Shown: piece by piece, positions 1,780 to 28,582 of the stretch
Layout of the letters: every line of letters starts with the position of its first letter
How positions within the stretch are numbered: the stretch's first letter is position 1
Assembly: GCA_965228485.1 (NCBI GenBank)
Contig: OZ245819.1
Coordinates: 1,080,001-1,112,000, forward strand
DNA: 32,000 nt
Source: Candidatus Saccharimonadota bacterium
Lineage (GTDB): Bacteria > Patescibacteriota > Gracilibacteria > UBA4473
Reading direction: 5' to 3'
Translations under genes and position numbers: made by a program
The notes under the pieces: model-generated
Told to the model about the DNA's origin: nothing
The model's database searches: none
The model's input: only the letters and a program-made list of their open reading frames with translations

Positions 1780-1809
1780 AAAAAAGTGCTCAGTTAGGGC
1801 ACTTTTTTT
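1780..1809. terminator. Bidirectional rho-independent terminator between convergent genes
   Basis: AAAAAAGTGC-(loop)-GCACTTTTTTT. An A-run lies 5' and a T-run lies 3', so a U-tract follows the hairpin on either strand. Confidence 0.6.
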
Positions 1810-2728
1810 ATTCTAAATATTGTTGGTGTGTTTTCTTTAGATCAGCGTTTGCCACATGTGTATAGATTTGTGTGGTGGCAATATTACTGTGTCCAAGCAT
1901 TTCTTGGACGGATCTTAGATCGGCTCCATTTTTTAGAAGAGTGGTCGCAAAAGTATGTCTTAACTTATGTGGGGTTACAGGTTTTGTGATTCCGCATTTT
2001 CTTCCTCTATCACGAATCATAATTTCTATAGCGGTTCGACTCAGCCGTCGAGATTCCCCGTTGGTTTCAAATTCGTCTTTTCTCATGCGAGCATTGATGA
2101 ATAGAGGAGGGTACACATCTTCTCTTAAATCTAAATATCGCTCAAGGCAGTTGATAGCCAGGTCAGTAAGGAAGACGCTTCGATATTTCTTTCCTTTTCC
2201 GAGAACGTTAAATTCTTTGGTCTTTAAGTTTACTTGCTCACGGTTAAGCGCGCAGAGTTCCGATATTCGGAGCCCAGTAGAGAATAGGATTTCGACAATC
2301 GCACGATCTCGCGCTGCGATGAGTGGGTTTTTGCTATCATTGTATTCTCTCAATCTTTTGAGTTCTTCTAGAGTCAACCCCGAGACGTCTCTGGGATCAT
2401 TTTTTGGAAGGTCTATTTTTTCAGGATTTAGGATTGGATCGTCAAGTTCCTGCTTTATGCAGTACTTTAGAAAGCTTCTGACAGGGATGAGATAAATGTT
2501 TTGGGTGCTTCTGCTTATCGGGTCTCCATTTCTAGTTTTGATCTCAAAAATATGATCTCGAAATGTATCGAGTTTCTCGAGGGTTATTTCCCCCAGACTA
2601 ATGTTTTGTGGAAGACTTTCTTCAAGTAATATTAGAGATTTTTGGTAGTTTCTAAGGGTATATTCTGAAGCATTTTGGTACAGCTTTAGATGTCTTAGGT
2701 ATTTTTCAATGGCCTTCGATAACTTCAT
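1808..2728 (-). CDS. xerC: Tyrosine site-specific recombinase, XerC/XerD family
   Basis: C-terminal catalytic box 'HKLRHTFATTLLKNGADLRSVQEMLGHSNIATTQIYTHV' plus 'ARDRAIVEILFSTGLRISEL' (Arg) and an N-terminal SAM-like domain. XerC versus XerD cannot be resolved by eye. Confidence 0.88.
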   Translation of the reverse strand: MKLSKAIEKYLRHLKLYQNASEYTLRNYQKSLILLEESLPQNISLGEITLEKLDTFRDHIFEIKTRNGDPISRSTQNIYLIPVRSFLKYCIKQELDDPILNPEKIDLPKNDPRDVSGLTLEELKRLREYNDSKNPLIAARDRAIVEILFSTGLRISELCALNREQVNLKTKEFNVLGKGKKYRSVFLTDLAINCLERYLDLREDVYPPLFINARMRKDEFETNGESRRLSRTAIEIMIRDRGRKCGITKPVTPHKLRHTFATTLLKNGADLRSVQEMLGHSNIATTQIYTHVANADLKKTHQQYLE

Positions 2729-10185: not shown

Positions 10186-10884
10186 TTTTACTGAAGGAGG
10201 ATCTAAGTATTTTTGAGTTATGATATTATCTTCTTTCTTAACGAAGCAATAATAGTGTCTGATGATTAAATAGCCCCAGAATAAGATGGTAATAAGTAGA
10301 AAACATTCAATCATTTGTTTTAGTGGTTGAATGTGTAAGGGAAGGCCTATGGTATCTACGTCTCCGCAAAGAATATGCATACAGTTTATATTGTCTTTTG
10401 GGCTTCCGAGCCAGTAGCTAATGGGGAGTAATATTGAAAGATAGAAATAATAGAAAAATAAGAATGATTTTATTTTAAGCCCTACTTTCCAAACTCCATA
10501 TCCGGAAAGAGGAATAAGTATTGCATGAGCAACAATCGATAGCACAAGCGTTAACCCATTGAAAAAATTAGGATTCTGTGCATAGGTTTCAAAAAAACTA
10601 AAACGGTTAAGACTGTATTCGCTCCCCAAAATATTGAGAATAAAGTCAAAAATCCAGGCGCTTTGTGCGGGGATAGAGGTGACAAAGACGGCTCCGATTA
10701 AAATAGGGGATCGACGCCAAAAACCTAAAGCAAGTATTAATAATGAGATATTGCAATACCACAGGAATATTTCTGCAAGAGAGTCTCCTTTTATCCAGTA
10801 AAATAGATTAGATTTTACAAGAAAGAAGCTGAGTAATGCGAAAGTTATCCAGCGAGACAATTGCTGATTCTTGTTTGATATCAT
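10168..10884 (-). CDS. Polytopic (about 7-8 TM) membrane protein, unknown family
   Basis: Hydrophobic segments run throughout. The ATG at 10884 overlaps the upstream stop (ATGA). The ORF-track start at 10908 is a TTG that extends into the upstream gene. Confidence 0.65.
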   Translation of the reverse strand: MISNKNQQLSRWITFALLSFFLVKSNLFYWIKGDSLAEIFLWYCNISLLILALGFWRRSPILIGAVFVTSIPAQSAWIFDFILNILGSEYSLNRFSFFETYAQNPNFFNGLTLVLSIVAHAILIPLSGYGVWKVGLKIKSFLFFYYFYLSILLPISYWLGSPKDNINCMHILCGDVDTIGLPLHIQPLKQMIECFLLITILFWGYLIIRHYYCFVKKEDNIITQKYLDPPSVKNKKDR

Positions 10885-11174
10885 TTTTTGCCACCCCCTC
10901 CACCACAAGAGGCAATTTCAAGGTCGTTTGGTGGGTTGTTGAGTGCTTTTTCTGCTTCATTCCTAGTCTTTGTTGGAATAAAATAGGACTTTAAGCCGGT
11001 ATGACGTACTCGTTTACAATCTGAGTGAGCTCTGATTTCTTGGTAAGAAGTTGTTGTTTGAAAGCCTTCATTTTGGGTGTTTATAGCCCAAATTGCTACA
11101 GGGAATCCCAGTAGGACTATGGAAGTTAGCCCAATTATTAAGAGAGATTTGTGTTTGGCTTCTAATTTTTTCAT
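10881..11174 (-). CDS. Small secreted two-cysteine protein; paralog of the N-terminal module of the RCC1 protein at 25350..26615
   Basis: Signal peptide ending 'AIWA|INT'. The mature part aligns ungapped with residues 21-81 of the RCC1 protein. It ends with C-GGGGG-KK. Confidence 0.6.
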   Translation of the reverse strand: MKKLEAKHKSLLIIGLTSIVLLGFPVAIWAINTQNEGFQTTTSYQEIRAHSDCKRVRHTGLKSYFIPTKTRNEAEKALNNPPNDLEIASCGGGGGKK

Positions 11175-23627: not shown

Positions 23628-24401
23628 ATGCAGGTTTGTTTTAATGGTCAGATTATGGAGGAAAAAGAGGTGCCCTCAATCTCTCCATTTGCAAAACACT
23701 TACAATTTGCTCAAGCAGTGTTTGAAACTTTTCGAGTAAGTAATGGTGAGATAGTGTTTTTTGATAAACATTTACAGAGGTTGGATCGTTCTAGAAGTTT
23801 AATGGGTTTTGAATGGCCAGAAAAACAAAACTTAAAAACGGTCGAATCAACGATTAAGCAATTTTTAGAATTACCAAAAACCTCTCAAGGCCTTTGGAGA
23901 GGGAAAATCTTCTTAACTCCTGATTTCTGGTGGTTTCGTTTGATATCATTAGAAGTTATTGATGAAAGAATTTATAGAGAGGGAGTCGTGGTAAATGCTG
24001 CGCAAGAAAAAAGGGCTTTGCCTCAGGCCAAGGGAGCTTCAGCGATCTATCTTCGACATATGAATCAGAAGAATATTTTTGAGACTTTGTTTTTTGATCA
24101 CAATGATTATTTAAGAGAAGGAAATGTCACGAATGTATTTATAGAATTAGAAAATGGTTTAGTGGTGACTCCAAAGGATAATATTTTACATGGTATTATG
24201 AGATCGGGAGTCTTGGATATTCTAAAGATCGAAGGTATTAATGTAGAAGAGCGAGAAGTACATAGATCAGAATTGTGTCAGGCGAGGGCTATGTTTCTTA
24301 CCAATACAATCAAAGGGGTCGTGCCTATCGCCACCTTTGAGGACTGGAAAGGAAATGATTTTTCTTTGGTAAGCCGTATTCGTGAACACTTGTCCTTTTA
24401 G
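23628..24401 (+). CDS. Class IV (fold type IV) PLP aminotransferase family protein (BCAT / D-aa AT / ADC-lyase-like)
   Basis: 'FETFRV', 'HLQRLDRS', 'EGNVTNVF' and 'ILHGIMRSGVL' match fold-type IV signature positions. Substrate cannot be assigned. Confidence 0.75.
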   Translation: MQVCFNGQIMEEKEVPSISPFAKHLQFAQAVFETFRVSNGEIVFFDKHLQRLDRSRSLMGFEWPEKQNLKTVESTIKQFLELPKTSQGLWRGKIFLTPDFWWFRLISLEVIDERIYREGVVVNAAQEKRALPQAKGASAIYLRHMNQKNIFETLFFDHNDYLREGNVTNVFIELENGLVVTPKDNILHGIMRSGVLDILKIEGINVEEREVHRSELCQARAMFLTNTIKGVVPIATFEDWKGNDFSLVSRIREHLSF

Positions 24402-24459: not shown

Positions 24460-25374
24460 ATGTCGAAGGTTTCTATTGTAATGCCCGCCTTTAATGAAGG
24501 AGAGTGGTTGAAGAATACGGTGTATGGGGTTATGGAGAATACAAATTTTCCAGATTTTGAAATTGTTGTAGTTGATGATGGAAGTGACGATGGGAGTGCC
24601 AAGTTTTTAAATGAGAAGCCAATTCCTAATGTTATTTATCACCGGCTGGAGAAAAGCCAGGGGGCTATTATCGCCCGAAATGAAGGAGGGAAAATAGCGA
24701 GTGGTAATTATCTCATTTTTATTGATGCCCATGAGATTCCTGAAACTGATAATTGGGTTTCTGTATTAGTGGGGTTACTAGAGAAGCCTAATACTGGTGC
24801 GGCAACTATTCCGATCTCAAGTTTTGAAGATCCTCGAAGGGTAGGTTATGTTTATCGTATTAAGGATTTGGCTTTAGAGCCAACTTGGGAATCATCAAAA
24901 TCAAAACATTTGGAATTAGTTCCGGCTATTCCTGGGGGATGTTTTGCTATAAAAAAATCTTTGTTCATTCAAACGGGAGGCTTTAATCCTTTACTTAAAA
25001 AGTGGGGGAGAGAGGACTTGGAGTATTCGCTTCGTTTATGGCGGATGGGGTATGATTTAAGGTCATCTAAATTGGCTAAAATTTCTCATGCTTTTAATCA
25101 TAAAAGAGCTTTTGAGATTAGCTGGGATCAGGTGGATCATAATATTTTGCTTATTGCTGATTTATTACTTTCTGTCGATGCGGCTATAAAAGTTTTCGAG
25201 CATCTAAAAAAGATTCGTCCACAGAATTATGATAAAATTTATCAACAATTATTAAATAATGAAGCCTACCAAACTTACAAAGCAAAACTACTGCTAAAGC
25301 GTAGTTTTGAGGACTATAGGATCGAGTTTAAAGACTATTTACCAAAAAATTATTCTCTTATGCCACAAGTATAA
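24460..25374 (+). CDS. GT-A fold glycosyltransferase (GT2), with ppGalNAc-T (GT27)-like motifs
   Basis: 'VSIVMPAFNEG', 'EIVVVDDGSDDGS', DxH 'FIDAHE' and 'WGREDLEYSLRLWRMGYDL'. ATG at 24460; the track start at 24382 is a GTG. Confidence 0.85.
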   Translation: MSKVSIVMPAFNEGEWLKNTVYGVMENTNFPDFEIVVVDDGSDDGSAKFLNEKPIPNVIYHRLEKSQGAIIARNEGGKIASGNYLIFIDAHEIPETDNWVSVLVGLLEKPNTGAATIPISSFEDPRRVGYVYRIKDLALEPTWESSKSKHLELVPAIPGGCFAIKKSLFIQTGGFNPLLKKWGREDLEYSLRLWRMGYDLRSSKLAKISHAFNHKRAFEISWDQVDHNILLIADLLLSVDAAIKVFEHLKKIRPQNYDKIYQQLLNNEAYQTYKAKLLLKRSFEDYRIEFKDYLPKNYSLMPQV

Positions 25375-26615
25375 AACATTCCAAGCCCTATATTTTTCCA
25401 GTCATTATCACTTCCAACTCTTAATGGAGTAGTGCTATAGCCAATATAACTAGGGACGATTGATCCAAGCTCTCCATGGTTTCCACTTCCCCAACACCAT
25501 AAAGCACCATCATTCTTTATCGCACAAGAGTGAGAGTATCCTGAAGCAACGCTTTCCCAAGTGTTCTCACTTCCTACCTGTGTAGGAACCCTCTTACTAT
25601 CTCTATAGCGTGATCCCAGACCAAGCTGTCCAGAGCCATCTCCTCCCCAACACCACAAAGTATTATCTGTTTTTATCGCACATAAGTGTCTTTTTCCTAT
25701 ACCAATACTTTTCCAAGTATCGGTACCAACCTGAACGGGAGTACTTCGATCTATAGCATCATTCTGTCCTAGTTGTCCATAACGGTTATCTCCCCAGCAC
25801 CACAAGGTATTATTATTTTTAGTCGCACAGGCAAATTTATTTCCAAGGTAAATATTTTTCCAATCGTTATCGCTACCAACTCGCACAGGGCTCGGTTGGT
25901 TATCTGATGGATCATTACTACCAATTCCAAGTCTTGAATCAGAATTACTCCCCCAACACGACAAAGTATTATCAGTTGTTATTCCACAAGTATGATCTAA
26001 TCCTGCTGAAACATCTTTCCAAGTACCAGGTAATCGCTTAGGGTAATGTTCATACTCATGAATTCCTCCTTTTCTGCCTATTCCTAGCTTCCCAAGGTAA
26101 GTGTGTCCCCAACACCATAACGTATTATCATCTTTTATTGCACAAACATGTCCAGAACCTAAACCAAATTCTATAGTATCTGCCAGACTACTTAAGTATG
26201 CAGGACTCATTCCCCAACATTGAAGATTTTTTCCACTTGAAATAGCACAAAAGGAAATCTCCCCAATTCCAACTTTGTTCCAACTACTACTTTCAAACTG
26301 CTCAGGCTCATGAGTATTTGATAATCCTGGAAGAGGTGAGCTTCCCCAGCACCAAAGAGCCTCTGGAACATGGCATGCCGAAAATTCAATATTTATGGGT
26401 TTATTATTCAGAAAAGAGTGCCATCCTGTGGTGGTTTGAGTTGGAACAAATCGTTCTTTCCCATCCAAGCTCTTAATTTTTTTACAAATTCCATGAGCAT
26501 TAATTATTTTATCGGCTGTTCCAATACGGAATCCAGTAAGAATGGTATTAATTGCAAAAACCTCGTCAAAAAGAAGCAATAACGAAAGTAAGAAAAATAA
26601 TTTTTTTGTTCTCAT
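25350..26615 (-). CDS. Secreted RCC1-repeat (seven-bladed beta-propeller) protein with an N-terminal two-Cys module
   Basis: Signal peptide 'LLLLFDEVFA|INT'. Seven '(L)WCWG..xxGxLG' blades with ~50-aa period. The start overlaps the upstream stop (ATGA). Confidence 0.88.
   Translation of the reverse strand: MRTKKLFFLLSLLLLFDEVFAINTILTGFRIGTADKIINAHGICKKIKSLDGKERFVPTQTTTGWHSFLNNKPINIEFSACHVPEALWCWGSSPLPGLSNTHEPEQFESSSWNKVGIGEISFCAISSGKNLQCWGMSPAYLSSLADTIEFGLGSGHVCAIKDDNTLWCWGHTYLGKLGIGRKGGIHEYEHYPKRLPGTWKDVSAGLDHTCGITTDNTLSCWGSNSDSRLGIGSNDPSDNQPSPVRVGSDNDWKNIYLGNKFACATKNNNTLWCWGDNRYGQLGQNDAIDRSTPVQVGTDTWKSIGIGKRHLCAIKTDNTLWCWGGDGSGQLGLGSRYRDSKRVPTQVGSENTWESVASGYSHSCAIKNDGALWCWGSGNHGELGSIVPSYIGYSTTPLRVGSDNDWKNIGLGMFYTCGIRE
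25353..26370 (-). repeat. Seven-fold ~150-nt periodic intragenic repeat (RCC1 blades)
   Basis: Recurrent 'ccccaacaccacaa'-type strings (reverse complement of L-W-C-W-G) near 25491, 25641, 25791, 25953, 26108, 26211 and 26343. Confidence 0.8.
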
Positions 26616-28519
26616 AGATTCATAACTTCCTTTAATTTATTAATTTGTTCTTGTTGATTTTCAATTAATTTCTGTTGTTGATCCGTTAGTTCTTTCATTT
26701 CTTTTAAGGCCTCAACAAGTATGGCATTTATATTTCCATAGCGAACCGACTTCAGCCCATCCACCTCGCTTGTTTCTACGAGTTCTGGTAGGACTCTTTC
26801 AACATCTTGAGCAATGAAACCAATAGAATTTTTATCAGAATTATTCCATTTAAATTTAACACCTTCTAATTGCTGAATAATTTTTATTGGATTTTTGATT
26901 TTCAAAATGTCTTTTTTCAAACGCTTATCAGAGGAGTAAACAAAATCTGTTGCTAGAACTGTTCCTTCAACATCTAGCTTCTGAGAAGGGGCCGTCGTCC
27001 CAATCCCGACATTGCCCGTATGCGCAACCGTCATGGAAGGTGTCCCGCCATAATAGGAATTACCAGCAGCACCATCTACATAAAACCGAATATCCCCTGC
27101 ATTGGACACCAAACGTATCCAGTTGCTTCCACCTTCAGAATAAAGCCCTAAATCAGTACCAGAAGCCAAACCCGCTTTGTTGATGATGCCCTCTCGAACC
27201 CTCAAACCACCACTACCAATATCCAACGTAGCACTCGGCGCCGTCGTCCCAATCCCAATATTCCCATTTCCTAGATTCAAGGTCATCATATCACCGCCAC
27301 CACCAGTAGAAGAAAATCTAGCTGTATCCTGAGCTCCTGCATAAGTTTTTATTCTTAATGAGTCTGTAGCATTACTAATAATTAAGCCGTCATCACTAGC
27401 TCCACCATTAACTTTCATATCTCCGACCACCTGAAGCGCATGAGATGGATTTGTCGTCCCAATTCCAACCTTCCCACTAGCATTAACAGTCAGAACGGTA
27501 GTTCCTGGTCCGCTATTAAATTTTGCTAAGTCCCCTGTTTGAGAATTATTTCCTTCCACTACAAGAGGAGTGGAAGCTGGGTGTTCTGATTTTGCAAATA
27601 CCCCGACTCCATTAGGGCTATAACTCTCTCCCCACACACCAAATACATACCCGCTAGAAGCTTGCGCTGTCCCACGAACAGCGGTTCCAGTTGTACTGTA
27701 ATTCATACCATAAATACTTGTAGAATATTCTGCAGACGCGTCAGCGTTACCATAAATCCCTATTCCATATTGTCCCATAGCATTCCCATAAACCCCTATT
27801 CCATTTTGACCACTCGAAACACCAGAAACTCCTTGTCCATTTGTTACGGTGCTTACTGAAGATATGGCAGCGTCCGTACCGTTACTGACAGAGGCCTGGA
27901 TTCTACCATTTACCTCTAATTCTGTCGTTGGACTTGAAACTCCAATTCCTACTCTCCCATTCTCTTGTATTTTCATAAGTTCAGCCCAATTTCCTCCTGG
28001 TCCAGGAGCATTTTTTCCGATAATTAAAGCTCGATTGTCATTATCGTTATTATTCCAGTCCATAGAGATGTAGACATTGTCTTCTCCGTTTAATTCCAGC
28101 GCCCCACTACTATCATATACGGTTCCCCCTCTTACGAGCAAAGTTCCATCTATCTGGAGATCACCGTCTTCATCAATATTGGCTTTATCTGCATCGGCTC
28201 CCGTTCCAATCTGGAAAAGTTTTTCATTGGCCGCAGGGGACTCTTTATGTACAGAAAATTGCGCTGGAGGTACGGCTGTCCCAACTCCAACCTGTCCGTT
28301 AGTATAGTACATATCTCCACCACTAGAATTCCAGAGCTGGTTGCTCAGAATATCTATCGCTGATGATATGGTAATAAGATCTGAGCGTACTTTGTTCCAG
28401 TCAGAGGCTCGAATAAGCTCCCCACTGTTTACCGTCGGAGTCGTTATCGTTACTGCGGCGTAGGAAATGTTTGAAAGGCCAAGTAATAGCCATGCTAGTA
28501 GTAGAGTTCTCATATTCAT
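26612..28519 (-). CDS. Secreted tail-fibre-like protein with a C-terminal peptidase S74 intramolecular-chaperone (auto-cleaving) domain
   Basis: Signal peptide 'LLLGLSNISYA|A'. Five 'G(V/I)G(T/V)xxPxxxLxV' knots and a Gly/Ser/Thr/Tyr-rich middle. The C-terminus 'SSDKRLKKDI...GFIAQDVERVLPELV...' is followed by a coiled coil. Confidence 0.85.
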   Translation of the reverse strand: MNMRTLLLAWLLLGLSNISYAAVTITTPTVNSGELIRASDWNKVRSDLITISSAIDILSNQLWNSSGGDMYYTNGQVGVGTAVPPAQFSVHKESPAANEKLFQIGTGADADKANIDEDGDLQIDGTLLVRGGTVYDSSGALELNGEDNVYISMDWNNNDNDNRALIIGKNAPGPGGNWAELMKIQENGRVGIGVSSPTTELEVNGRIQASVSNGTDAAISSVSTVTNGQGVSGVSSGQNGIGVYGNAMGQYGIGIYGNADASAEYSTSIYGMNYSTTGTAVRGTAQASSGYVFGVWGESYSPNGVGVFAKSEHPASTPLVVEGNNSQTGDLAKFNSGPGTTVLTVNASGKVGIGTTNPSHALQVVGDMKVNGGASDDGLIISNATDSLRIKTYAGAQDTARFSSTGGGGDMMTLNLGNGNIGIGTTAPSATLDIGSGGLRVREGIINKAGLASGTDLGLYSEGGSNWIRLVSNAGDIRFYVDGAAGNSYYGGTPSMTVAHTGNVGIGTTAPSQKLDVEGTVLATDFVYSSDKRLKKDILKIKNPIKIIQQLEGVKFKWNNSDKNSIGFIAQDVERVLPELVETSEVDGLKSVRYGNINAILVEALKEMKELTDQQQKLIENQQEQINKLKEVMNL

Positions 28520-28582
28520 GTTGTTTCATACTTCATAATACAAGTATCTACTTTAGGTTTAAAGCTAAATTTTCCGAAAAAA

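What the first reader, a model, noticed from the sequence alone, without database searches (positions are those of the whole stretch)
25350..28519. Non-prophage, translationally coupled secreted pair: a self-cleaving tail-fibre-like protein plus a seven-bladed RCC1 propeller
Two minus-strand genes share an ATGA stop/start overlap at 26612-26615, so they are almost certainly co-translated. Both products begin with Sec-type signal peptides.

The upstream protein (635 aa) resembles a phage tail fibre or tailspike. It has five 'G(V/I)G(T/V)xxPxxxLxV' knots, a Gly/Ser/Thr/Tyr-rich repetitive middle (GVSGVSSGQNGIGVYGNAMGQYGIGIYGN...), and a C-terminal S74 intramolecular-chaperone domain followed by a coiled coil. 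The downstream protein is a seven-blade RCC1-like propeller.

Nothing nearby is phage-like. There is no capsid, terminase, portal, baseplate or integrase gene, and the flanks are a malic enzyme, a glycosyltransferase and an aminotransferase.

My inference is that this is a cell-surface fibre with a ligand-binding propeller, which would be a candidate host- or partner-contact apparatus in a small-genome organism. I do not know of a characterised fibre-plus-RCC1 operon of this kind.
Basis: partly seen in the sequence, partly recalled or inferred. Interest (0 to 1): 0.72.

Follow-up and report, generated by a model that had tools for sequence, protein, structure and literature searches.

The report
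Secreted phage-type fibre plus RCC1 propeller
A tiny-genome bacterium of the Patescibacteria group carries, among housekeeping genes, a secreted version of a phage tail-fibre gene pair (a self-cleaving fibre and a seven-bladed propeller) that is built from swappable cassettes and was recently exchanged between distantly related genomes, so it is a good candidate for the device these bacteria use to recognise partner cells.

Summary
Two overlapping minus-strand genes encode a 635-aa fibre with a Peptidase_S74 domain (catalytic SDKRLK) and a 421-aa seven-blade RCC1 propeller. Both carry signal peptides and sit among housekeeping genes.

The fibre is not a new kind. By sequence it matches the Bdellovibrio 'mosaic adhesive trimer' (MAT) fibres. 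Its five 'knots' fit the published MAT capping-loop motif.

- **Cassette mosaic.** All four cassette borders seen against three paralogues fall on these motifs.
- **Recent exchange.** A 2-kb block (the whole RCC1 gene plus the fibre's distal shaft and S74 domain) is 99-100% identical to a Candidatus Altimarinota genome whose flanking genes are only 66-85% identical in protein.
- **Phage precedent.** The S74-fibre-to-RCC1 pair, with overlapping stop and start, recurs in phages: Synechococcus phage S-SRM01, and 16-20 of 60 viral RCC1 loci including fusions. It was absent from 80 cellular RCC1 loci.
- **Shared N-terminal module.** A roughly 60-aa two-cysteine module of the RCC1 protein also heads a lectin encoded just downstream of a Bdellovibrio S74 MAT fibre.

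The best reading is a cell-surface recognition fibre with a co-made binding partner, adapted from a phage tail-fibre module. Physical docking and the ligand remain inferred.

The parts
26612..28519 (-). Fibre gene (635-aa ORF; probable true start at 28513, 633 aa)
   Evidence: ORF. Pfam S74. PHROG tail-fibre families. PDB sequence hits to Bdellovibrio MAT Bd2133 (8OND, E 5.8e-11), phage S16 gp37 (6F45) and MyRF. Start codon inferred from the leader alignment.
28457..28519 (-). Fibre signal peptide (aa 1-21, ...SYA|A)
   Evidence: Read from the sequence. Paralogues P0002-P0010 have equivalent hydrophobic leaders. No predictor was run.
27941..28456 (-). Conserved N-terminal region (aa 22-193): a family-specific first ~40 aa (predicted helix) followed by generic fibre repeat units
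   Evidence: 51-78% identical across 8 family members. Only 6 representatives among 1.84 billion proteins match it full length, whereas positions ~40-185 match thousands of giant fibre proteins many times over. The structure model has low confidence.
27452..27940 (-). Gly/Ser/Thr/Tyr-rich middle cassette (aa 194-356)
   Evidence: 100% identical only to paralogue P0002 of the same genome and absent from the sister fibres. Contains a 36-nt tandem repeat.
27239..27451 (-). Shaft cassette (aa 357-427)
   Evidence: 100% amino-acid identity to P0004 aa 194-262 and to P0002. 98% nucleotide identity to L006 10507-10731.
26933..27238 (-). Distal shaft cassette (aa 428-529), predicted to be the tip of the mature fibre after cleavage
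   Evidence: 100% amino-acid identity to P0003 418-497 and beyond, and to P0004 498-577. Aligns three times to the beta-helix/capping-loop units of Bd2133.
26615..26932 (-). S74 intramolecular chaperone/protease (Ser530, Lys535) plus C-terminal helical tail (aa 530-635)
   Evidence: Pfam. SDKRLK motif. 50% identical to the C-terminus of S-SRM01 gp334. 100% identical to P0003.
28250..28291 (-). Capping-loop motif 1 (aa 77-90, VGVGTAVPPAQFSV)
   Evidence: Member of the DNA repeat family D1.
27911..27952 (-). Capping-loop motif 2 (aa 190-203); cassette border at aa 193/194
27428..27469 (-). Capping-loop motif 3 (aa 351-364); cassette border at aa 356/357
27218..27259 (-). Capping-loop motif 4 (aa 421-434); cassette border at aa 425-428, where paralogue P0002 switches to its other tip
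   Evidence: The two BLAST segments to the sister genome overlap exactly here, at 27246-27266.
26969..27010 (-). Capping-loop motif 5 (aa 504-517); cassette border at aa 507/508
   Evidence: 86% DNA identity to motif 4 (D2).
26612..26615 (-). ATGA stop/start overlap (translational coupling)
   Evidence: The same 4-nt overlap is present in the sister genome.
25350..26615 (-). RCC1 partner gene (421 aa)
   Evidence: AlphaFold model with pLDDT >90 for aa 155-420; Foldseek top hits are UVR8, HERC2 RLD and RCC1.
26553..26615 (-). RCC1-protein signal peptide (aa 1-21, ...VFA|I)
   Evidence: Read from the sequence. The model puts a helix at aa 3-22.
26370..26552 (-). ~60-aa two-Cys N-terminal module (aa 22-82; GF..AHxxCKK..FVPTxT..W..F...C)
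   Evidence: BLASTP E 3e-8 to the N-terminus of the protein encoded downstream of Bdellovibrio S74 MAT P0054. jackhmmer/HMM hits to window 10881..11174 and to L257. No Pfam or NCBIfam family.
25353..26369 (-). Seven-blade RCC1-like propeller (aa 83-421), 14 of the protein's 16 Cys
28520..28577 (-). Conserved upstream leader with a promoter-like TTTAAA-17-TATTAT
   Evidence: Shared by the window fibre gene and both sister fibre genes. The promoter scan is not above chance overall.
25280..27270 (.). Recently exchanged block: 99-100% nucleotide identity to the sister genome
   Evidence: Sliding identity, against flanks of 65-82% nucleotide and 66-85% amino-acid identity (35% for the aminotransferase).
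10881..11174 (-). Stand-alone 97-aa secreted protein consisting of the same two-Cys module (outside the reported coordinates)
   Evidence: jackhmmer E 2e-33. ORF and sequence. Present in the 1,295,315-bp genome.

Best explanation
The locus encodes a two-part cell-surface recognition device: a cellular, Sec-exported adaptation of a phage tail-fibre module.

**Shown**
- The first gene encodes a MAT-like fibre with a signal peptide, a family-conserved N-terminal region, a shaft of beta-helix units punctuated by capping-loop motifs, and a C-terminal S74 domain with an intact Ser-Lys dyad.
- The second gene overlaps it by 4 nt. It encodes a signal peptide, a ~60-aa two-Cys module and a seven-blade RCC1 propeller.

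**Inferred from the S74 and MAT literature**
- After export, the S74 domain and its helical tail nucleate trimerisation.
- S74 then cuts itself off before Ser530.
- That leaves a fibre of about 508 aa per chain. The conserved N-terminus holds it at the cell and aa 428-529 form the free end.

**Inferred from context**
- The propeller is made in step with the fibre and works with its distal end as the binding module, or a second one, for a surface structure on a partner or host cell.
- The grounds are translational coupling, co-transfer of the RCC1 gene with the distal fibre cassette as one 2-kb block, phage fusions in which RCC1 propellers sit directly before the S74 cleavage site, and the shared N-terminal module on a lectin downstream of a Bdellovibrio S74 MAT.

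**Diversification**
- Specificity is varied by recombination at the ~30-nt DNA that encodes the capping loops. This swaps shaft and tip cassettes between paralogues and between genomes.
For: **MAT-like fibre**
- S74 and RCC1 HMM hits, and SDKRLK with five capping-loop motifs.
- Sequence homology to solved Bdellovibrio MAT fibres (8OND, E 5.8e-11, and others).
- The published MAT definition matches: a signal peptide, a conserved N-terminal end, the capping loop V-G-G/N-pi-x-x-P-x-x-x-L, and S74 or non-S74 tips.

**Mosaicism**
- Paralogue P0002 in the same genome is 100% identical over aa 21-428 and then has a different, non-S74 tip.
- P0003 and P0004 share other cassettes.
- All four borders fall on capping-loop motifs, whose DNA is itself a repeat family.

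**Recent exchange**
- Window 25280-27270 is 99-100% identical to the sister genome.
- Syntenic housekeeping proteins are 66-85% identical.

**Not a prophage**
- Flanks are housekeeping genes, syntenic in the sister genome.
- Signal peptides are present here and absent from the phage counterparts.

**Phage counterpart**
- In S-SRM01, gp334 (an S74 fibre) is followed by gp335 (RCC1) with an 8-nt overlap.
- L172/L173 have the same arrangement.
- Of 60 viral RCC1 loci with upstream sequence, 12 have an S74 fibre immediately upstream and 4 are RCC1-S74 fusions. Junctions overlap or are 0-6 nt apart.
- 0 of 80 cellular or metagenomic RCC1 loci have an S74 gene nearby.

**Shared partner module**
-.
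Against: - No experiment or co-folding shows that the propeller touches the fibre.
- In this lineage the pairing is seen in only two genomes and amounts to one evolutionary event. Relatives with the same fibre family lack an RCC1 gene.
- Only 2 of 76 viral S74 fibres have an RCC1 partner.
- The window's S74 domain is not clearly nearest to the RCC1-linked phage fibres, so common descent of the pair is not shown.
- The two-Cys module also occurs as a stand-alone 97-aa protein far from any fibre gene. It may therefore be a general surface-retention module rather than a fibre adaptor.
- The N-terminal region shows no similarity to the Bdellovibrio MAT N-domain.
- Signal peptides were judged by eye.
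- The monomer model of the N-terminal region was unusable (pLDDT 54).
Confidence: 0.55

Rival explanations
1. The two products are both secreted and co-transcribed but physically independent. The fibre is a complete adhesin in its own right, as Bdellovibrio S74-type MATs are thought to be. The RCC1 propeller is a separate soluble or surface binding protein that happens to share an operon within a surface-protein island.
For: - Bd3182-type S74 MATs are thought to bind ligand in a cleft of their own beta-helix.
- The fibre family exists without an RCC1 gene in relatives.
- Most viral S74 fibres have no RCC1 partner.
- The two-Cys module also occurs alone.
- Neighbouring genes in related loci are other large surface proteins.
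Against: - A 4-nt overlap is conserved in both genomes.
- The RCC1 gene and the distal fibre part were co-transferred as one 99-100% identical block.
- The same tightly coupled order recurs in phages, where both must be virion parts, and fusions of RCC1 propellers with S74 occur in single proteins.
- A Bdellovibrio S74 MAT also has an overlapping downstream gene with the same N-terminal module.
Confidence: 0.25
2. The RCC1 protein serves the fibre rather than the target. It would be an assembly, retention or anchoring factor that holds the fibre, or its released S74 fragment, at the cell envelope. This would resemble phage tail-fibre assembly proteins encoded downstream of fibre genes.
For: - The gene sits where tfa and gp38-type genes sit in phages (established knowledge of T-even, lambda, Mu and P2 fibre loci).
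- The genes are translationally coupled.
- The conserved N-terminal module is shared across different C-terminal domains.
- P0097 carries a Kelch propeller in the proximal half of an S74 fibre.
Against: - The S74 domain is itself the folding chaperone, so a second chaperone is not needed.
- The partners' variable parts are classic ligand-binding folds: an RCC1 propeller, fibrinogen-related lectins and Ig-like repeats.
- In phage fusions the propellers lie at the distal end, next to the S74 cleavage site.
Confidence: 0.12
3. The pair is a decaying remnant of a prophage, or a recent viral insertion, with no role for the cell.
For: - Both domains and their coupled order are typical of phage tail-fibre modules.
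- GC content is raised over the fibre gene (0.45 against about 0.38).
- There is evidence of lateral transfer.
Against: - No capsid, terminase, portal, tail or lysis genes lie within 32 kb.
- The flanks are housekeeping genes and syntenic between two diverged genomes.
- Both ORFs are intact and carry signal peptides that the phage versions lack.
- The N-terminal region is shared with other chromosomal fibres of the lineage.
- Paralogue and sister cassettes are 100% identical in protein.
Confidence: 0.04
4. The 2-kb near-identity with the sister genome is an assembly or polishing artefact between co-occurring populations, not lateral exchange. This rivals only the transfer sub-claim.
For: Both genomes are metagenome-derived circular contigs in the same archives. 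I could not check reads.
Against: - The flanks are too diverged (65-82% nucleotide identity) for cross-mapping.
- Identity decays gradually through the GT2 gene rather than stopping abruptly.
- The block contains 14 differing codons and one indel.
- Other cassettes match different sister genes at 97-98%.
Confidence: 0.03

Closest known systems
Bdellovibrio bacteriovorus MAT (mosaic adhesive trimer) fibres, S74 subgroup, e.g. Bd3182 and Bd2133 (Caulton et al. 2024, PMC10769870)
   Same: - Signal peptide, a conserved end next to it, and a shaft of beta-helix units with the capping-loop motif.
- C-terminal S74 with SDxxxK.
- Several paralogues with swapped S74 and non-S74 tips.
- Direct sequence hits to the solved structures.
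- The closest Bdellovibrio relative also has an overlapping downstream gene whose product starts with the same two-Cys module.
   Different: - The N-terminal region is not similar to the Bdellovibrio one.
- The host is a Patescibacteria-group bacterium with a 1.3-Mb genome.
- The fibre is shorter (635 aa against about 1,000).
- The partner is an RCC1 propeller. Partners are not mentioned in the MAT paper.
Phage S74-fibre-to-RCC1 modules, e.g. Synechococcus phage S-SRM01 gp334/gp335 (NC_070963.1) and IMG/VR relatives; annotated but uncharacterised
   Same: - An S74-terminated fibre gene is immediately followed by a ~350-400-aa RCC1 propeller gene, with overlapping or abutting stop and start.
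- The S74 domains are 50% identical.
   Different: - The phage proteins have no signal peptides.
- The phage RCC1 partners start with a different conserved peptide (MPxQFLSPEGDLE...) that shows no similarity to the window's N-module.
- Phages often carry 2-5 RCC1 genes in a row, with a DUF4376 gene between them.
T-even long tail fibre tip: gp37 plus the downstream gp38 adhesin (phage S16 structure 6F45; T2-type). Recalled from the literature, apart from the 6F45 hit.
   Same: - The gene order is a distal fibre gene followed by a separate protein that, in T2/S16-type phages, sits on the fibre tip and binds the receptor.
- S16 gp37 aligns to the window fibre's C-terminus (E 1e-9).
- Recombination at conserved motifs swaps specificity.
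   Different: RCC1 has no homology to gp38. Whether the propeller docks on the tip is untested.
K1F endosialidase / T5 pb1 C-terminal intramolecular chaperone (Peptidase S74), and eukaryotic MyRF
   Same: The same domain and the same Ser-Lys dyad, which drives trimer folding and is then released.
   Different: Here it is chromosomal and Sec-exported, with no sialidase or virion context.
RCC1-like seven-blade propellers (RCC1, UVR8, HERC2 RLD)
   Same: The same fold and repeat family.
   Different: This one is secreted and Cys-rich (WCWG blades), with an extra N-terminal module. There is no reason to expect Ran-GEF activity.

Membership tests
MAT fibre superfamily (Caulton et al. 2024) | N-terminal signal peptide | tested here: met
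   Read from the sequence: n-region MNMR, hydrophobic core, SYA|A. No predictor was run.
MAT fibre superfamily (Caulton et al. 2024) | Conserved beta-rich ~130-aa N-terminal domain homologous to that of the 21 Bdellovibrio MATs | tested here: not met
   - BLASTP of the fibre against Bdellovibrio P0054 aligns only aa 343-620.
- The lineage has its own conserved N-terminal region. Its later part is a generic fibre repeat.
- The arrangement is analogous, but homology is not shown.
MAT fibre superfamily (Caulton et al. 2024) | Beta-helix shaft with capping-loop motif V-G-G/N-pi-x-x-P-x-x-x-L | tested here: met
   Five motif copies. Three aligned units to Bd2133 8OND (E 5.8e-11), plus hits to 8OJN, 8OML and 8OL4.
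MAT fibre superfamily (Caulton et al. 2024) | S74 terminus with SDxxxK, or an alternative non-S74 tip, across several mosaic paralogues | tested here: met
   SDKRLK. Paralogue P0002 has a non-S74 Gly-rich tip, and P0003/P0004 share cassettes.
MAT fibre superfamily (Caulton et al. 2024) | Intertwined homotrimer, surface display and binding to prey or host | not testable with these tools
   Only monomer prediction is available, and the N-region model had pLDDT 54.
Peptidase S74 intramolecular chaperone | PF13884 above the gathering score, with a Ser-Lys dyad | tested here: met
   56.8 bits against a cut-off of 22. Ser530 and Lys535.
Peptidase S74 intramolecular chaperone | Autocleavage releasing the C-terminal domain | not testable with these tools
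   Needs expression of the wild type against an S530A mutant.
RCC1-like propeller | Seven RCC1 repeats forming a closed propeller | tested here: met
   - Pfam and seven CWG blades.
- Model pLDDT is above 90 for aa 155-420 but low for blades 1-2.
- Foldseek E 1e-23 to 1e-20 against UVR8, HERC2 and RCC1.
Phage S74-fibre-to-RCC1 tail-fibre module | S74-terminated fibre gene immediately upstream of an RCC1 gene, same strand, with stop and start overlapping or within a few nt | tested here: met
   ATGA overlap in the window, compared with junctions of -11 to +6 nt in 14 viral pairs.
Phage S74-fibre-to-RCC1 tail-fibre module | Located in a virus genome, with no signal peptides and the RCC1 partner carrying the conserved phage N-peptide | tested here: not met
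   Housekeeping context. Signal peptides are present. The N-peptide HMM finds only the LWxWG blade motif.
Phage S74-fibre-to-RCC1 tail-fibre module | Common descent of the pair with the phage pairs | tested here: inconclusive
   - The best viral S74 match (L174) and P0083 are RCC1-linked.
- Bdellovibrio and other cellular S74 domains score as high or higher.
Prophage | Neighbouring virion, lysis or integration genes | tested here: not met
   Pfam on 28 window ORFs. The only recombinase is XerC/D-like and 24 kb away. The flanks are syntenic in the sister genome.

The most novel reading that the evidence does not exclude
S74-type fibres of cells and phages commonly work as two-component receptor binders: a trimeric stalk plus a separately encoded, co-translated binding protein that docks on the stalk once the S74 chaperone has left.

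- In cyanophage-like viruses the partner is an RCC1 propeller. This would give a function to phage 'RCC1' proteins, for which none is known.
- In cellular versions (Patescibacteria-group bacteria, Bdellovibrio) the partner carries a previously undescribed ~60-aa two-Cys docking module fused to interchangeable binders: an RCC1 propeller, fibrinogen-related lectins or Ig-like repeats.
- In these Patescibacteria-group bacteria the tip-plus-partner unit is passed between genus-level-diverged genomes by recombination at capping-loop motifs. This would act as a host-range cassette for an episymbiotic or predatory lifestyle.
Probability: 0.3. Interest if true: 0.85.

Novelty: new variant of a known kind. 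Interest (0 to 1): 0.64.

Why it matters
**Host recognition in small-genome bacteria.** How Patescibacteria-group (CPR) bacteria recognise and attach to their hosts is largely unknown beyond type IV pili and unspecified giant proteins. Here is a defined, small, testable candidate. It has a solved-structure relative in a bacterial predator, a clear processing site, a swappable specificity cassette, and evidence that the cassette moves between lineages.

**Two leads beyond this genome.**
- Phage RCC1 proteins were previously guessed to act on DNA (PMC7247149). They are genetically tied to S74 tail fibres and are probably receptor-binding parts.
- Bdellovibrio MAT fibres may have unnoticed partner lectins that share an N-terminal module with the protein found here.

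Tried and rejected
**Retrieval that failed**
- The look-up of encoding contigs holds no record for P0001 or P0002. The locus of paralogue P0002 in the same genome could therefore not be inspected.

**Candidate partners and matches that did not hold up**
- The 421-aa gene next to the fibres of relatives is not an RCC1 protein. It is a short member of the fibre family.
- The phage RCC1 N-terminal peptide shows no detectable similarity to window RCC1 aa 22-84.
- P0002's Gly-rich tip has no significant match to the 'glycine rich protein' of phage LIBA2945 and no Pfam hit.

**Analyses that were inconclusive or unusable**
- The N-terminal-region structure model had pLDDT 54, so no fold search was run on it.
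- Ranking S74 domains to prove co-descent with the phage pairs was inconclusive.
- The A1 profile search through the search for homologous proteins returned only short, weak hits. The exhaustive search showed that most of that 'domain' is a generic fibre repeat.

**Literature**
- No paper links RCC1 or S74 tail fibres to CPR bacteria.
- PMC12906663 was a false lead, because 'RCC' there denotes culture-collection strain numbers.

**Negative searches**
- NCBIfam has no family for the fibre, the RCC1 protein or the 97-aa protein.
- The two-Cys module was not found in viral contigs or plasmids.
- Promoter and terminator scans were not above chance.

**Alternative genetic code**
- Code 25 (TGA read as Gly), which would abolish the stop/start overlap, is rejected because the housekeeping ORFs are intact under table 11.

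Full report
**Observation.** They share an ATGA stop/start overlap. TGA is a true stop in this organism, because EF-Tu, GuaA and a 1173-aa PBP1A are intact under table 11.

Pfam gives Peptidase_S74 for the fibre (E 2.7e-15, aa 530-581). For the partner it gives RCC1-like domain, RCC1 and RCC1_2 (E 4.5e-48 to 1e-32). The S74 catalytic motif is present as SDKRLK at aa 530-535. Five motifs [VIL]G[VIL]GxxxPxxx[LFMI] lie at aa 77, 190, 351, 421 and 504. The partner has seven (W/Q/S)CWG blades and 16 cysteines, against none in the fibre.

An AlphaFold model of the partner is confident for aa 155-420 and matches UVR8, HERC2-RLD and RCC1. Blades 1-2 and aa 11-84 are low confidence. Both N-termini read as standard Sec signal peptides, though no predictor was available.

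Two small corrections apply. The conserved start of the fibre is probably the third codon, at 28513. The window also holds one XerC/D-like tyrosine recombinase at 1808..2728, 24 kb away among FBPase and ribosomal-protein genes.

**Context and organism.** All other genes in the window are housekeeping: M50 protease, L25, class IV aminotransferase, GT2, malic enzyme, S41 protease, PBP1A, RibD, GuaA, EF-Tu and a ribosomal-protein operon. No tRNA genes were found.

The identical fibre protein is on record from a 1,295,315-bp contig. The only close relative of the RCC1 protein (97% identity) lies on a 1,326,059-bp chromosome labelled 'Candidatus Altimarinota bacterium', a phylum of the Patescibacteria group. 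That sister locus is syntenic: PBP1A ... M50, L25, aminotransferase, GT2, then RCC1, then fibre. It carries an extra 953-aa S74 fibre and a 1908-aa secreted protein with C1q domains before the malic enzyme gene. The locus is therefore a variable surface-protein island in a conserved chromosomal position, not a prophage.

**What the fibre is.** A sequence search of the PDB returns the Bdellovibrio protein Bd2133 (8OND, E 5.8e-11, three aligned repeat units) and three further Bdellovibrio 'cell wall surface anchor' entries. It also returns phage S16 gp37 and MyRF.

These Bdellovibrio proteins are the 'mosaic adhesive trimer' (MAT) fibres of Caulton et al. 2024 (PMC10769870). As described there, MAT fibres have:
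- a signal peptide and a conserved N-terminal domain;
- an intertwined trimeric beta-helix shaft with capping loops of consensus V-G-G/N-pi-x-x-P-x-x-x-L;
- either an autoproteolytic S74 terminus (SDxxxK) or other adhesive tips.

They are displayed on the predator surface and bind prey glycans.

The window fibre meets these features except one. Its N-terminal region shows no similarity to the Bdellovibrio one. An exhaustive profile search shows that only six cluster representatives match the whole 185-aa N-terminal region. Positions ~40-185 are a generic fibre repeat present many times over in thousands of giant proteins.

**Mosaic structure.** A paralogue in the same genome (P0002, 624 aa) is 100% identical over aa 21-428. 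It has a different signal peptide and a different, glycine-rich, non-S74 tip. The sister genome's two fibres share with the window fibre:
- the N-terminal region (about 79%);
- a shaft cassette (aa 357-425, 100%);
- the distal shaft (aa 428-507, 100%);
- in one of them, the S74 domain and tail (100%).

The four cassette borders (aa 193/194, 356/357, 425-428, 507/508) all fall on capping-loop motifs. These motifs cover about 11% of the protein, so four chance coincidences would be expected at roughly 1.5e-4 by my own arithmetic. The motif-coding DNA is a five-copy repeat family, with two copies 86% identical over 29 nt. The BLAST segments to different sister genes overlap exactly on one motif (27246-27266). 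Recombination at these motifs is the simplest account.

**Recent lateral exchange.** Syntenic housekeeping proteins of the two genomes are 66-85% identical, and the aminotransferase only 35%. Nucleotide identity in the flanks is 65-82%.

In contrast, window 25280-27270 is 99-100% identical in 100-nt windows, with identity fading through the 3' half of the convergent GT2 gene. This block holds the entire RCC1 gene plus fibre aa 428-635. The RCC1 genes differ at 14 codons, 12 nonsynonymous and 2 synonymous, plus one indel. The differences cluster at aa 119-154 and 327-339. The numbers are too small for a selection test.

The propeller gene and the fibre's distal end have thus moved, or been homogenised, together between genus-level-diverged genomes.

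**Is the pairing conserved?** Within the lineage, not beyond these two genomes. Four further loci with the same fibre family carry a 2.7-kaa LVIVD/LamG protein, a 421-aa short fibre, an ~800-aa fibre and a 730-aa protein, but no RCC1 gene. These come from Crystal-Geyser-type and 'Gracilibacteria' bins. Beyond the sister, the RCC1 protein has only generic 30-40% relatives.

The same pair does recur in phages.
- **Synechococcus phage S-SRM01.** The 'long tail fiber distal subunit' gp334 ends in an S74 domain 50% identical to the window's. It is followed, with an 8-nt overlap, by a 344-aa RCC1 protein, and further RCC1 genes follow.
- **A 153-kb metagenomic contig** has the same order.
- **IMG/VR scan with RCC1 patterns.** This gave 77 loci, 60 of them with at least 600 nt of upstream sequence. 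Of those 60, 12 have an S74 fibre ORF immediately upstream, 4 are single ORFs combining RCC1 propellers with a terminal S74, and 4 have S74 about 3.6 kb upstream. Some loci are near-duplicates, leaving about nine distinct adjacent arrangements.
- **Fusions.** The last propeller ends about 80 aa before the S74 serine, so it sits at the distal end of the mature protein.
- **Junctions.** They overlap or are 0-6 nt apart, with an AGGAGG inside the fibre's 3' end. The phage proteins have no signal peptides.

Controls bound the association. None of the 80 best RCC1 loci from general metagenomes has an S74 gene within 5 kb. Only 2 of 76 viral S74 loci have an RCC1 partner, although the single best viral match to the window's S74 domain is one of them. 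S74 similarity ranking does not place the RCC1-linked phage fibres clearly nearest. The pair is therefore an instance of a recurrent phage architecture, but common descent of the pair is not proven.

The papers I could search give no function for phage RCC1 proteins. One paper speculates that they condense DNA, and the S-SRM01 paper does not mention them.

**A shared N-terminal module on partner proteins.** The closest Bdellovibrio S74 MAT (P0054) is followed, with an 11-nt overlap, by a gene for a 478-aa secreted protein. After its signal peptide comes a ~60-aa segment similar to window RCC1 aa 21-81 (BLASTP E 3e-8, 32% identity, same position). Two fibrinogen-related/intelectin-like lectin domains follow.

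An iterated search of everything fetched found the module twice more:
- A stand-alone 97-aa secreted protein in this very window (10881..11174, just downstream of tuf; E 2e-33).
- A protein of at least 468 aa with InlB-type repeats, 1.4 kb downstream of another cellular S74 fibre (E 1.3e-8).

Invariant positions are His, Cys, Phe-x-Pro, Thr and a second Cys. Neither Pfam nor NCBIfam models the module. It was not found in viral contigs or plasmids, and the MAT paper does not discuss downstream genes.

So three independent cellular S74-fibre loci, out of the five I could test, have a downstream gene with this module fused to a different binding fold. My capped database searches were exhausted, so its wider distribution is untested.

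**Mechanism proposed.** Shown here are the domain content, the coupling, the mosaicism, the exchange and the phage counterpart.

Inferred from S74 and MAT biochemistry: Sec export, then trimerisation nucleated by the S74 domain and its helical tail, then self-cleavage before Ser530. This leaves a mature fibre held at the cell by its conserved N-terminus with aa 428-529 at the free end.

Inferred from context: the propeller is produced in step with the fibre and acts with its distal end as a binding module for a partner-cell surface, possibly docking through the two-Cys module. I put this overall reading at 0.55.

Rivals are scored as follows:
- an independent co-expressed secreted protein, 0.25;
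- an assembly or retention factor, 0.12;
- a prophage remnant, 0.04;
- an assembly artefact behind the identical block, 0.03.

Related CPR bacteria (Vampirococcus) are epibiotic predators with fibrous surfaces. That makes a host-contact role plausible, but it is not evidence for this organism.

**Novelty.** The fibre is a new member of a known kind (MAT / S74 tail-fibre-domain proteins) in a new host lineage, with its own N-terminal region. Three things appear undescribed in the library I could search:
- the coupled S74-fibre-to-RCC1 module shared by phages and a Patescibacteria-group chromosome;
- its exchange as a unit between diverged genomes;
- the two-Cys module shared with a Bdellovibrio MAT-downstream lectin.

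I rate it a new variant of a known kind, with interest 0.64.

Noticed in passing
window 10881-11174 (-): A stand-alone 97-aa secreted protein just downstream of tuf. It consists of the same ~60-aa two-Cys module that heads the RCC1 protein, and no Pfam or NCBIfam family covers it.
   Followed up: partly
L254 7846-9282 (Bdellovibrio bacteriovorus CP168967.1): The S74 MAT fibre P0054 has an overlapping downstream gene for a secreted protein with the two-Cys module and two fibrinogen-related (GGGWT) lectin domains. The MAT paper does not mention partner genes.
   Followed up: partly
L257 4001-8362: The cellular S74 fibre P0016 (beside DnaE and RNase HII) is followed by a HEPN/nucleotidyltransferase pair. 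After that comes a protein of at least 468 aa with the two-Cys module and InlB-B-type repeats.
   Followed up: partly
window 1808-2728 (-): A 306-aa tyrosine recombinase (Phage_integrase plus SAM-like N-domain), XerC/D-like, next to FBPase and a ribosomal-protein operon.
   Followed up: partly
window 23628-24401 (+): The class IV aminotransferase is only 35% identical to the syntenic sister gene, while its neighbours are 66-85% identical. It may have been replaced or be evolving fast.
   Followed up: no
L006 3988-9714 (sister genome OZ246423.1): A 1908-aa secreted protein with a fibre-type N region (aa ~245-400), four C1q domains and a BclA_C-like segment. Its C-terminus looks by eye like a phage tail-collar motif, but Pfam does not support that. 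This gene and a second S74 fibre (953 aa) are absent from the window, where the malic enzyme gene directly abuts the fibre gene.
   Followed up: partly
L001 16445-19963: The sister genome has a MacB-type ABC efflux operon (periplasmic adaptor, ATPase, FtsX-like permease) between ribulose-phosphate epimerase and PBP1A. The window lacks it.
   Followed up: no
L002-L005, L007, L008: Related bins carry a cluster of a 2668-2684-aa LVIVD-propeller/LamG protein, a 421-aa short fibre with a Cys-rich lectin-like tip, an ~800-860-aa fibre ending CTNAPNASGVCSCS, and a 730-aa Big_1-like protein next to gyrA.
   Followed up: partly
L024/L025, L043/L044, L014, L172/L173 and other viral loci: Phage loci carry 2-5 RCC1 genes in a row after the S74 fibre, and giant fibres with several RCC1 propellers fused before the S74 domain. 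A DUF4376 gene sits between RCC1 genes in S-SRM01-like genomes.
   Followed up: partly
L011 3-3370: Two tandem S74 fibre genes with a 4-nt overlap lie next to relaxase, MobC-like and type IV coupling protein genes on an activated-sludge contig. This places fibre genes on a conjugative element.
   Followed up: no
L013 (Clostridioides phage LIBA2945): A 'tail fiber protein' is followed by a 1627-aa protein with about four RCC1 propellers, then another tail-fibre gene and a 'glycine rich protein'. That echoes the glycine-rich tip of paralogue P0002, though no sequence similarity was found.
   Followed up: partly
window 28520-28577 and L006 9883-9946, 12911-12974: All three fibre genes carry the same ~58-nt upstream leader with TTTAAA-17-TATTAT, so the leader duplicates together with the gene.
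   Followed up: partly
window 25582-25681 and 26082-26281: Inside the otherwise identical block, the RCC1 genes differ at 12 nonsynonymous and 2 synonymous codons. These cluster in two patches (aa 119-154 and 327-339), which could reflect patch conversion or selection on binding loops.
   Followed up: partly
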